A stretch of 21,627 nucleotides of DNA from a virus (Duplodnaviria; Heunggongvirae; Uroviricota; Caudoviricetes): the IMG/VR virus record IMGVR_UViG_2859788636_000004; one strand, 5' to 3'. Below, in pieces: positions 6,408 through 8,094 of this stretch (positions are counted from its first letter, which is position 1; each line of letters begins with the position of its first letter). The notes under the pieces are model-generated. The model was not told where the DNA came from. It saw only the letters and a program-made list of their open reading frames with translations, and ran no database searches. Position numbers and translations under genes: made by a program.

Positions 6408-6658
6408 GAGCGCTTATCCGATTTTTGATCGTATTGAAGAAATGGCATGGGCTCGTCACTACCAGCAGATCGTTCGTGAAGAAAAAGAAACGGAACTGGC
6501 GGACGACCTGGAAAAAGGTCTGCCTCAGCACCTGTTTGAATCGCTCTGCATCGACCATTTGCAACGCCACGGTGCCAATAAACAGGCAATCAGCCACGCA
6601 TTTGATGATGATGTTGAGTTTCAGGAGCGCATGGCAGAACACATCCGGTACATGGCTG
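6408..6658 (+). pseudogene. Orphan internal gene fragment (about 83 codons) trapped between IS600 copy A and IS911
   Basis: Open frame ...[83 protein letters not shown] runs from the IS600 boundary into IS911 with no start or stop of its own; family not recognised. Confidence 0.3.
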
Positions 6659-6730
6659 TGAAGTGGCACACTGAATTTGGCCACCTGAACAGAGGTGATA
6701 TGCTCACCTCAGAACAACACAGGTGCTCCA

Positions 6731-7033
6731 ATGAAAAAAAGAAATTTTAGCGCAGAGTTTAAACGCGAATCCGCTCAACTGGTTGTTGACCAGAAATACA
6801 CGGTGGCAGATGCCGCCAAAGCTATGGATGTTGGCCTTTCCACAATGACAAGATGGGTCAAACAACTGCGTGATGAGCGTCAGGGCAAAACACCAAAAGC
6901 CTCCCCCATTACCCCGGAACAAATTGAAATCCGTGAGCTCAGGAAAAAGCTACAACGCATTGAAATGGAGAATGAAATATTAAAAAAGGCTACCGCGCTC
7001 TTGATGTCAGACTCCCTGAACAGTTCTCGATAA
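6731..7033 (+). CDS. IS911 OrfA
   Basis: [49 protein letters not shown]...; A6G slippery motif TTAAAAAAGG near 6977-6986. Confidence 0.9.
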
Positions 7034-7059
7034 TCGGGAAACTCAGAGCGCATTATCCT

Positions 7060-7899
7060 GTGGTCACACTCTGCCATGTGTTCGGGGTTCATCGCAGCAG
7101 CTACAGATACTGGAAAAACCGTCCTGAAAAACCAGACGGCAGACGGGCTGTATTACGCAGTCAGGTACTTGAGCTACATGGTATCAGCCACGGTTCGGCC
7201 GGAGCAAGAAGCATCGCCACAATGGCAACCCGGAGAGGCTACCAGATGGGACGCTGGCTTGCTGGCAGGCTCATGAAAGAGCTGGGGCTGGTCAGCTGTC
7301 AGCAGCCGACTCACCGGTATAAACGTGGTGGTCATGAACATGTTGCTATCCCTAACTACCTTGAAAGGCAGTTCGCCGTGACCGAGCCAAATCAGGTGTG
7401 GTGCGGTGATGTGACCTATATCTGGACGGGTAAGCGCTGGGCGTACCTCGCCGTTGTTCTCGACCTGTTCGCAAGAAAACCAGTGGGCTGGGCCATGTCG
7501 TTCTCGCCGGACAGCAGGCTCACCATGAAAGCGCTGGAAATGGCATGGGAAACCCGTGGTAAGCCCGGCGGGGTGATGTTCCACAGCGATCAGGGCAGTC
7601 ATTATACGAGCAGGCAGTTCCGGCAGTTATTGTGGCGATACCAGATCAGACAGAGTATGAGCCGGCGCGGAAACTGCTGGGATAACAGCCCAATGGAACG
7701 CTTCTTCAGGAGTCTGAAGAACGAATGGATGCCGGTGGTGGGTTACGTAAGCTTCAGCGAGGCAGCTCACGCCATAACGGACTATATCGTTGGATATTAC
7801 AGTGCACTAAGACCGCACGAATATAACGGTGGGTTACCCCCAAACGAATCGGAAAATCGATACTGGAAAAACTCTAACTCGGTGGCCAGTTTTTGTTGA
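7060..7899 (+). CDS. IS911 OrfB transposase (DDE)
   Basis: 279-aa ORF in the -1 frame relative to orfA; ...[15 protein letters not shown]...[23 protein letters not shown]... Confidence 0.9.
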
Positions 7900-8094
7900 C
7901 CACTTCAAGTAGTAGACGCCGTTACGCTGGTAGAGATAGTAGACTGCTGGAAGTTTGTGACTACTGGATAGCTGAATCATATGTCTGTATGCCCTGAGAG
8001 GGTTACACAGTGGGTTACAGTAAGTAACTCTGCAAGGAGGCTTAAAGCCGTATCCCTTAGGATTCAGTAGGTTGGAGTACTTTAAGAAAGGTCA

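What the first reader, a model, noticed from the sequence alone, without database searches (positions are those of the whole stretch)
6408..8094. Late-gene cargo slot after the tRNA array is occupied by IS911 and an orphan gene fragment
In lambdoid phages the region after Q, PR', tR' and the accessory tRNAs carries lysis genes, and in Stx phages the toxin operon. Here the tRNA array ends at 8095, followed by 187 bp with no ORF, then IS911 with no target-site duplication, then a 250-bp internal gene fragment cut at both ends by IS911 and IS600. This looks like an IS-mediated deletion joint that removed the original late cargo.
Basis: partly seen in the sequence, partly recalled or inferred. Interest (0 to 1): 0.55.

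Follow-up and report, generated by a model that had tools for sequence, protein, structure and literature searches.

The report
Island stump and IS911 deletion joint
The 187 bases after the prophage's tRNA genes are the cut-off end of a small mobile island that had inserted into the prophage's own glycine tRNA gene, and the IS911 next to it marks a 14.6-kb deletion that joined this stump to a fragment of the phage gam gene; this is ordinary decay of a Shigella-type prophage, but it reveals an island family that uses prophage tRNA genes as landing sites.

Summary
The tRNA array ends at 8095. IS911 (6659-7907) has no target duplication. A 251-bp gene fragment lies between IS600 and IS911.

Two things were missed. 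The fragment is lambda-type gam. The 187 bp is not phage late DNA: it is the integrase-proximal end of a 6-9 kb integrative island specific for tRNA-Gly(UCC). It holds 114 nt of spacer plus codons 1-24 of a 534-aa tyrosine integrase on the minus strand.

Relatives of this island sit at chromosomal glyU in about 220 of 5,426 E. coli genomes. In E. coli EPSSH018, five IMG/VR prophage contigs and many complete Shigella-type genomes they sit inside this prophage's tRNA-Gly. There they are flanked by 17-nt repeats of the tRNA 3' end, and related phages show empty sites.

The "IS-mediated deletion joint" reading is supported. The window aligns to CP026772.1 as two collinear blocks that overlap by exactly one IS911, which implies a 14,641-bp deletion between two direct IS911 copies. 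Lysis and head genes were already absent from that interval.

The finding itself is ordinary. The island family is a modest novelty: it uses a prophage tRNA as attB, some variants carry the defence gene PD-T7-4, and others carry perfect T7 promoters.

The parts
5144..6407 (-). IS600 copy. It joins a truncated recE (3715-5139) to the gam fragment. Flanks are CTG and GAG, so there is no duplication and it is itself a rearrangement joint.
   Evidence: 99.8% over 1264 bp to annotated IS600; flanks; RecE by Pfam Exonuc_VIII.
6408..6658 (+). Internal fragment of a lambda-type gam gene (host nuclease inhibitor). IS600 cuts its 5' end and IS911 interrupts it near the 3' end.
   Evidence: Pfam Gam 2-84/98, E=1.7e-47; DNA hits to gam of Stx and lambda phages; sibling genomes continue with ...CTG AAA CCA TTG... 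to the gam stop after IS911.
6659..7907 (+). IS911, a recombinant copy. Its IRL side is the primary insertion in gam. Its IRR side comes from a second IS911 copy that sat in the island integrase gene.
7908..7980 (-). 5' stump (codons 1-24 plus 1 nt) of the island's tyrosine integrase gene.
   Evidence: Translation. 23 of 24 residues match the E. coli 21AR0133 glyU-island integrase. 100% DNA identity to genomes where the 534-aa integrase is intact (L034/L037/L042, L023).
7981..8094 (-). Island-side arm between the tRNA 3' end and the integrase start codon (the att arm and integrase upstream region).
   Evidence: 97% to the glyU-island junction of E. coli 21AR0133; the tRNA-proximal 96 nt (7999-8094) are 88.8% identical in 218 further E. 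coli genomes; no phage match.
8095..8169 (-). Prophage tRNA-Gly(UCC). Its 3'-terminal 17 nt (8095-8111, TGGAGCGGGCAGCGGGA) is the att core used by the island.
   Evidence: The array is 100% identical to the one in CFSAN029787, where the holin gene follows. 17-nt direct repeats flank the island in L001, L002, L005 and L008.
8173..8405 (-). The other prophage tRNAs: Thr(UGU) 8173-8248, Arg(UCU) 8251-8327, Met/Ile2(CAU) 8329-8405.
   Evidence: RefSeq annotates the CAU tRNA as tRNA-Ile in CFSAN029787.
8614..9123 (-). ORF6N-domain gene of the prophage, interrupted at its 5' side by IS600 (9124-10387). That IS600 has a CTG/CTG duplication and is therefore a simple insertion.
   Evidence: Pfam ORF6N; flanks.
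10711..11265 (-). DUF1133 / Q-like antiterminator gene of the same prophage. It shows that late transcription runs on the minus strand towards the tRNAs.
   Evidence: Pfam DUF1133 5e-108 and Phage_antitermQ; same gene order in EPSSH018.

Best explanation
Shown: the window holds a decayed Rac/lambdoid prophage whose late transcription runs on the minus strand (Q-like gene, ORF6N gene, tRNA array). Inferred from relatives: a small tRNA-Gly(UCC)-specific integrative island inserted by site-specific recombination into the 3' end of the prophage's own tRNA-Gly gene, between the tRNAs and the holin gene and co-oriented with late transcription. This island family is normally found at chromosomal glyU. 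Shown by comparison with sibling genomes: one IS911 copy entered the island's integrase gene, with its IRR abutting codon 24. Another IS911 copy in the same orientation had inserted into gam of the neighbouring prophage about 14 kb away, with a CTG duplication. Homologous recombination between the two direct copies deleted 14,641 bp and left one hybrid IS911. The present sequence is therefore gam' - IS911 - 187-bp island stump - tRNA-Gly. The stump is non-functional: it has no integrase and no distal att site.
For: 1. The 187 bp has no phage homologue. It is 97% identical to the junction between chromosomal glyU and a 544-aa integrase in E. coli 21AR0133. It encodes that integrase's first 24 residues.
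2. Homology to phage tRNA arrays stops exactly at the tRNA-Gly 3' end. In CFSAN029787, phi467 and vB_EcoS-689R5 the same tRNA-Gly is followed by about 290 bp and then the holin gene.
3. In E. coli EPSSH018 the same prophage backbone has a 6.36-kb insert after tRNA-Gly. It carries int and a DUF4145 gene that matches PD-T7-4, is bounded by imperfect 17-nt repeats of the tRNA 3' end, and is followed by phage DNA 92% identical to the empty site.
4. Perfect 17-nt repeats bound the glyU islands.
5. Five IMG/VR prophage contigs have the Met-Arg-Thr-Gly array directly upstream of this integrase. So do metagenome contigs and at least 7 complete Shigella-type chromosomes carrying the identical 187 bp and an intact 534-aa int. 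NCBI names cluster members as Shigella flexneri.
6. Two island lineages with 74-77% identical integrases both occur at glyU and in the prophage tRNA.
7. For the deletion: the gam|IS911 junction has a CTG duplication in CP026765.1. CP026772.1 and CP055132.1 have an IS911 with exactly the window's IRR|int junction. The window equals CP026772.1 minus the interval between the two direct IS911 copies.
Against: The island's distal att repeat is not in the window, and it is also lost in every Shigella-type relative examined, where the island is cut by IS1 or IS911. The window's tRNA-Gly 3' end is fully phage-type (AGC), whereas EPSSH018, L008 and L013 carry the island-type GAA. The crossover point therefore either differs or lies in a heteroduplex; this is not resolved. 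A simple-insertion stage of IS911 in int was not found. The IS911 copies are too similar to map the crossover. No excision or integration has been shown experimentally. The only other record with the window's arrangement (LR213452.1, L019) may be the window's own source, so the joint is not independently replicated.
Confidence: 0.88

Rival explanations
1. One reading: the 187 bp is native phage late-region DNA downstream of the tRNAs, and IS911 with the orphan fragment replaced the phage's lysis or toxin cargo in a single IS-mediated deletion.
For: No late genes are present in the window. IS911 lacks a duplication. Related phages place holin and lysis genes right after tRNA-Gly.
Against: The 187 bp has no match in 50,697 phage records even with sensitive blastn. 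It is 97% identical to a chromosomal glyU-island junction and encodes an integrase N-terminus. The interval removed by the IS911 event contains no lysis or head genes in the undeleted relatives.
Confidence: 0.04
2. The glyU-island end was joined to the prophage tRNA-Gly by homologous recombination between chromosomal glyU and the phage tRNA-Gly (a chromosomal rearrangement), not by site-specific integration of the island into the prophage.
For: The two tRNA-Gly genes share 10 and 13 nt blocks at the 3' end. Shigella-type genomes are heavily rearranged.
Against: EPSSH018 and L008 show a complete island bounded by tRNA-derived 17-nt repeats, with phage DNA resuming precisely at the empty-site position. 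This is the signature of integrase-mediated insertion. The arrangement recurs with two island lineages and in several hosts. 10-13 nt of identity is very short for RecA-dependent exchange (established knowledge).
Confidence: 0.04
3. The window's joint arose by one-ended (intramolecular) IS911 transposition from the gam copy into the integrase gene, giving an adjacent deletion, rather than by recombination between two pre-existing IS911 copies.
For: The outcome would be identical: a retained IS with one original flank and no duplication. The IRL side of the int-associated IS911 varies between genomes (int nt 1186, T7-repeat nt 544, gam), which suggests IS911-adjacent events in this region.
Against: CP026772.1 and CP055132.1 carry an IS911 with exactly the same IRR|int-codon-24 junction while the gam copy is still separate. 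The junction therefore pre-existed, and an independent hit at the same nucleotide is unlikely. IS911 transposes through an excised circle, which does not favour adjacent deletions (established knowledge).
Confidence: 0.08

Closest known systems
tRNA-gene-targeting genomic islands with tyrosine integrases (Islander-type islands; Williams 2002, as cited in PMC10111431)
   Same: The integrase gene lies next to, and is co-oriented with, the tRNA 3' end. The attP carries a replacement copy of the tRNA 3' end. Direct repeats of that end bound the island (17 nt here). Tandem accretion is seen at glyU in 21AR0133, where a second integrase follows the distal repeat.
   Different: The attB used here belongs to a prophage-encoded accessory tRNA-Gly, not the host's glyU. 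It matches the chromosomal core at only 14 of 17 positions.
Prophage-in-prophage integration through attB copies carried by prophages (Nakamura et al. 2021, PMC8112680)
   Same: A mobile element integrates into a prophage because the prophage carries a sequence resembling a chromosomal attB. The host prophages are often defective through IS-mediated deletions.
   Different: In that work the attB copies derive from yecE and other loci and sit near effector-gene clusters, and the incoming elements are full lambdoid or Stx phages. Here the attB is a functional-looking phage tRNA gene in the late operon, and the incoming element is a 6-9 kb island with no structural genes.
Helper-embedded PICIs (HE-PICIs; Alqurainy et al. 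2023, PMC10111431)
   Same: A small integrative element is embedded in the late region of a lambdoid prophage and co-oriented with late transcription. It carries a Rha/Ant-type gene.
   Different: HE-PICIs interrupt late protein genes. Their integrases form a PICI clade, and they carry alpA, primase and late modules. This island sits at a tRNA 3' end without breaking a phage gene, has a 534-544-aa integrase with a DUF6538-like N-terminus, and no PICI hallmark domain was detected.
Integrase-linked PD-T7-4 defence gene (Vassallo et al. 2022, bioRxiv 10.1101/2022.05.12.491691)
   Same: In the EPSSH018 and M217 variants, the gene immediately after int matches PD-T7-4 over its full length (E=3e-97 and 8e-99). 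The paper notes that PD-T7-4 homologues 'often overlap an integrase gene'.
   Different: The window-type variant (21AR0133 and Shigella-type) has no PD-T7-4. At that position it carries 1-3 tandem perfect T7 promoters. Nothing of this cargo remains in the window.
IS-mediated decay of lambdoid prophages in Shigella (for example the IS-flanked stx region of S. dysenteriae 1; from my own knowledge, not checked here)
   Same: IS600, IS911, IS1 and IS2 break up a lambdoid prophage, and recombination between IS copies deletes the late genes.
   Different: No toxin genes are involved here. One deletion endpoint lies inside a nested island rather than in phage DNA.

Membership tests
IS911 (IS3 family) | About 1250-bp element with TGAAGTGG terminal repeats and orfA/orfB, near-identical to reference IS911. 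| tested here: met
   6659-7907, 1249 bp, 99.0% over full length to RefSeq features 'IS3-like element IS911 family transposase'. Termini TGAAGTGG...CCACTTCA. ORFs 6695-7033 and 7060-7899.
IS911 (IS3 family) | 3-bp target duplication, expected for a primary insertion. | tested here: not met
   Flanks are CTG and AGT in the window. The same gam junction has CTG/CTG in CP026765.1. The window copy is therefore a recombinant, not a primary insertion.
IS600 (IS3 family) | 1264-bp element near-identical to reference IS600. | tested here: met
   5144-6407, 99.8% over 1264 bp to 'IS3-like element IS600 family transposase'.
Lambda Gam (host nuclease inhibitor) | Significant match to the Gam family profile. 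| tested here: met
   Pfam PF06064 E=1.7e-47, model positions 2-84 of 98, so a fragment only. 83-87% DNA identity to annotated gam genes.
tRNA-Gly(UCC)/glyU-specific integrative island | Tyrosine integrase gene immediately 3' of, and co-oriented with, tRNA-Gly(UCC). | tested here: met
   The window keeps only codons 1-24. The same DNA continues into an intact 534-aa Phage_integrase-domain protein in L023, L011, L034 and others.
tRNA-Gly(UCC)/glyU-specific integrative island | Direct repeat of the tRNA 3' end at the distal boundary. | tested here: not met
   There is no second copy of the core in the window; it was lost. It is present in relatives: L001 and L002 perfect 17 nt, L005 and L008 14 of 17. 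The window therefore holds a stump, not an island.
tRNA-Gly(UCC)/glyU-specific integrative island | Empty sites exist: the same tRNA without the island. | tested here: met
   CFSAN029787 (tRNA array 100% identical), phi467 and vB_EcoS-689R5 go from tRNA-Gly straight to the holin gene.
tRNA-Gly(UCC)/glyU-specific integrative island | Integrase-dependent excision and integration. | not testable with these tools
   This needs PCR for attP/attB junctions or long-read evidence of excised circles.
Helper-embedded PICI | Integration inside a late protein-coding gene of the helper. | tested here: not met
   The insertion is at the tRNA-Gly 3' end, about 290 bp upstream of the holin gene, and no phage gene is interrupted.
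Helper-embedded PICI | PICI gene set (alpA, primase/replication, packaging-redirection genes). | tested here: not met
   Pfam, PHROGs and PADLOC on the cargo of L001, L002, L005 and L008 gave only Rha/Ant, DUF6971, DUF4145/PD-T7-4 and unassigned proteins.
Stx-phage toxin slot | stxA/stxB between Q and the lysis genes. | tested here: not met
   tblastn with StxA and StxB of phi467 against the window gave no hit at E<=1e-3.

The most novel reading that the evidence does not exclude
The 187-bp stump belongs to a family of 6-9 kb tRNA-Gly islands that may be keyed to T7-like virulent phages. One lineage carries the anti-T7 gene PD-T7-4 directly after int. The other lineage, the window's, carries 1-3 tandem perfect T7 class III promoters (TAATACGACTCACTATAGGGAGA, 26 nt identical to T7 phiOR) at the same position. 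These are followed by an array of TTAAAG-type short repeats like those near the T7 genome ends, then by Rha/Ant, DUF6971 and unassigned genes. On this reading the island is either a T7-RNA-polymerase-triggered defence or a satellite that T7-like phages transcribe, replicate or package. Its use of a prophage-borne tRNA-Gly as a second attB would let it travel with lambdoid phages and place it under Q-dependent late transcription.
Probability: 0.3. Interest if true: 0.75.

Novelty: new variant of a known kind. Interest (0 to 1): 0.4.

Why it matters
For this window the result is mostly clarifying. What looked like unexplained DNA in the toxin or lysis slot is the dead end of a nested mobile element plus a fully reconstructable IS911 x IS911 deletion. 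The deletion also removed a sit-like metal-uptake operon present in sibling strains.

More generally, accessory tRNA genes carried by lambdoid and Stx-type prophages can serve as attachment sites for islands that normally target the host's glyU. This adds a third route to nested elements, after chromosomally derived attB copies and late-gene targets. It places foreign cargo, including a known anti-phage gene, inside the phage late operon.

The perfect T7 promoters in the island are a concrete, testable lead on how bacteria or their parasites sense T7-like phages.

Tried and rejected
- An exact 40-nt scan of genome contigs for the tRNA-Gly/187-bp junction found nothing. That collection has one genome per species and evidently lacks this arrangement.
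- A look-up of the 48-aa chimeric int-IS911 ORF found no record.
- Looking up the exact 534-aa integrase gave only two short contigs. Complete-genome context came instead from the Q-like protein.
- Mapping the IS911 crossover by SNPs failed: the copies differ by 0-2 positions, and the only difference from the window is a private SNP at position 524.
- A 1286-nt inverted repeat reported by the repeat finder suggested 22 nt of shared flank beyond IS600. Inspection showed this was an extension artefact.
- PADLOC, Pfam and PHROGs on the remaining island cargo gave no defence or replication assignment beyond PD-T7-4 and Rha/Ant.
- Sensitive blastn of the T7-promoter region against phages matched only about 60 nt around promoters of T7-like phages. 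There is therefore no extended homology to a T7 origin or genome end.
- The promoter/terminator scan of 7850-8700 gave nothing beyond chance. A weak isrK-like Rfam hit at 8495-8568 was far below threshold.
- Four literature searches found no description of glyU islands with T7 promoters or of islands in prophage tRNA genes. The library is limited, so this is weak evidence of novelty.

Full report
**Observation**

The window is a mosaic of IS elements and prophage pieces. Four tRNA genes lie on the minus strand: Met/Ile2(CAU) 8329-8405, Arg(UCU) 8251-8327, Thr(UGU) 8173-8248 and Gly(UCC) 8095-8169.

Upstream of them on the same strand are:
- an ORF6N gene (8614-9123) interrupted by an IS600 with a CTG duplication;
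- a DUF1133/Q-like gene (10711-11265), plus YbcO, DUF1367, Hok, DUF551, DUF977 and a DnaC-like gene.

Prophage late transcription therefore runs right to left in window coordinates.

IS911 occupies 6659-7907 (99.0% over full length to annotated IS911) with flanks CTG and AGT. IS600 occupies 5144-6407 (99.8%). The 251 bp between them is a gam fragment (Pfam Gam 2-84/98, E=1.7e-47).

**What the 187 bp is**

The segment has no match in 50,697 phage records, even with sensitive blastn. It is 97% identical to the sequence next to chromosomal tRNA-Gly glyU in E. coli 21AR0133 and LR-64-1, where it covers the spacer and start of a 544-aa 'site-specific integrase'. A further 218 E. coli genomes match its tRNA-proximal half at 88.8%; the one inspected (M217) has it at glyU.

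On the minus strand, 7980->7908 reads MIQLSSSHKLPAVYYLYQRNGVYY. The 21AR0133 integrase begins MIQLPSSHKLPAVYYLYQRNGVYYFRLRV.

Homology to phage tRNA arrays stops exactly at the 3' end of tRNA-Gly. Homology to the glyU junction runs from 7908 into the shared 3' terminal bases of the tRNA.

**It is an island inserted in the prophage's tRNA**

E. coli EPSSH018 carries the same prophage backbone: recE, kilR, ydaV, DUF977, DUF551, hok, DUF1367, DUF1133, ORF6N and a tRNA array. There, tRNA-Gly is followed by a 538-aa integrase, a DUF4145 gene and five unassigned genes, and only then by the holin, lysozyme, Rz and terminase genes.

The 6.36-kb insert is bounded by TGGAGCGGGC(GAA)GGGA at the tRNA and TGGAGCGGGC(AGC)GGGA at the far end. 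Beyond the far repeat the sequence is 92% identical to the tRNA-holin spacer of CFSAN029787, an empty site whose tRNA array is 100% identical to the window's.

Further support:
- The glyU islands of 21AR0133 and M217 are bounded by perfect 17-nt repeats, giving islands of 7.3 and 6.4 kb.
- Five of seven close IMG/VR hits to the integrase have the Met-Arg-Thr-Gly array directly upstream. One of them (L008) again shows both repeats, with phage DNA resuming afterwards.
- Metagenome contigs and at least seven complete Shigella-type chromosomes carry the window's 187 bp at 99.5-100% identity, continuing into an intact 534-aa integrase. NCBI names members of that protein cluster as Shigella flexneri.
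- Two island lineages, with integrases 74-77% identical, both occur at glyU and in the prophage tRNA. The move into prophages is therefore recurrent.
- It is rare in E. coli: 1 of 5,426 complete genomes.

**The IS911 joint**

The ORF spanning IS600-gam-IS911 is present in at least six NCBI assemblies.

In five of them the right-hand side of the IS911 differs from the window's. CP026765.1 was read in full: its IS911 is a simple insertion in gam, flanked CTG|IS911|CTG and followed by the last gam codons and an AAA_24 gene. Four of the five show that AAA_24 gene directly after IS911. In CP026772.1 the flank instead lies inside AAA_24. Only LR213452.1 shares the window's arrangement.

After tRNA-Gly, the complete genomes show a series of states:
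- intact int with no nearby IS911 (CP026765.1 and two others);
- intact int with an IS911 beyond the T7-promoter repeats (four genomes);
- an inverted IS911 whose IRR abuts int codon 24, exactly as in the window, with the IRL side at int nt 1186 (CP026772.1) or at T7-repeat nt 544 (CP055132.1).

Joining the two CP026772.1 loci gives 39.5 kb. The reverse-complemented window aligns to it as two collinear blocks:
- window 6658-21270 matches positions 1-14608 (99.87%);
- window 309-7908 matches positions 27999-35598 (99.99%).

The two blocks overlap by exactly one IS911. The window is therefore the product of recombination between two direct IS911 copies (at 13359-14607 and 28000-29248), which deleted 14,641 bp.

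In CP026772.1 that interval holds:
- the int 3' end and one T7-promoter repeat;
- IS1 and a partial IS600;
- tail-fibre remnants;
- a ZnuA/ABC_tran/ABC-3 operon (sit-like; that name comes from my own knowledge);
- the neighbouring prophage's truncated int, DUF1233, another IS and an AAA_24 remnant.

It holds no lysis or head genes, so those were lost earlier. The window itself has none.

**How it works (inference)**

The integrase recognises the 3' 17 nt of tRNA-Gly(UCC). The phage tRNA matches 14 of those 17 positions and acts as a secondary attB.

The three mismatched bases end up on different sides in different integrants: AGC at the tRNA in the window type, GAA in EPSSH018, L008 and L013. 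Either the crossover point differs, or these bases lie in the strand-exchange overlap. This is unresolved.

Because int is co-oriented with Q-dependent late transcription, prophage induction could drive island excision, as proposed for helper-embedded PICIs (PMC10111431). This has not been tested. In the window nothing functional remains.

**Comparison with known systems**

The deletion joint is ordinary Shigella-type IS biology. Nested integration into prophages is already known in two forms: chromosomally derived attB copies (PMC8112680) and late-gene targets (PMC10111431). A prophage accessory tRNA used as attB by a glyU island is a variant I did not find described. The island fails the HE-PICI membership tests, both for target type and for gene set.

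**Side observation**

The window-type island carries 1-3 tandem perfect T7 promoters, co-oriented with int, followed by TTAAAG-type repeats. The repeat unit is present in 58 of 5,426 E. coli genomes. The other lineage carries PD-T7-4 at the same position, and M217 has both. This points to a link with T7-like phages, but the region lies outside the window, in the deleted part.

**Verdict**

Interest is moderate-low for the locus itself and higher for the island family it reveals.

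Noticed in passing
L011 11576-12245 (also L001 10133-10274, L002 5662-5684, L009, L010, L023, L024, L029); not in the window: The island whose stump is in the window carries 1-3 tandem copies (121-nt unit) of the perfect 23-nt T7 class III promoter TAATACGACTCACTATAGGGAGA, 26 nt identical to T7 phiOR and co-oriented with int. An AT-rich array of TTAACTTAAAG-type repeats follows, resembling the short repeats near the T7 genome ends. The unit occurs in 58 of 5,426 complete E. coli genomes, always on the chromosome. No paper describing it was found.
   Followed up: partly
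L005 12704-13357 and L002 5720-6352: In the second island lineage, the gene immediately downstream of the integrase is a full-length match to the anti-phage protein PD-T7-4 (DUF4145; PADLOC E=3e-97 and 8e-99). In M217 a perfect T7 promoter follows it directly.
   Followed up: partly
CP026772.1 merged loci L039+L020, positions about 20,650-24,110 (absent from the window): The 14.6-kb IS911 deletion removed a four-gene metal ABC transporter (ZnuA-like, ABC_tran, two ABC-3 permeases) that sits between the two prophages in sibling genomes. It looks like the sitABCD iron/manganese system (that name comes from my own knowledge). Whether the source strain has another copy was not checked.
   Followed up: no
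window 5144-6407 and 19928-21191: Two further IS600 copies have no target duplication and join unrelated genes: recE' to gam', and a LysR-family gene fragment to a DUF1376 replication gene. They are therefore additional rearrangement joints. The third IS600 (9124-10387) has a CTG duplication, and the IS2 at 1477-2807 has an AGCTG duplication; both are simple insertions.
   Followed up: partly
window 639-5139: The block Rha/Ash - IS2 - KilR - YdaE - RecE' lies where late genes would be expected, on the plus strand. In sibling genomes it belongs to the early-left arm of a second, tandem prophage that follows the first one. The window therefore spans the fused remains of two prophages.
   Followed up: partly
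L001 2802-4860: At chromosomal glyU of E. coli 21AR0133 a second, larger integrase gene (650 aa) begins just beyond the island's distal 17-nt repeat. This suggests tandem accretion of two elements at the same att site.
   Followed up: no
window 8494-8527: A GC-rich hairpin followed by a T run on the minus strand (AAAGAACCCGCTTTATGCGGGTTTTTTT) lies between the ORF6N gene and the tRNA array, where a tR'-like terminator would be expected. The simple terminator scan did not call it, and a weak isrK-like Rfam hit (21.5 bits against a threshold of 50) overlaps it.
   Followed up: no
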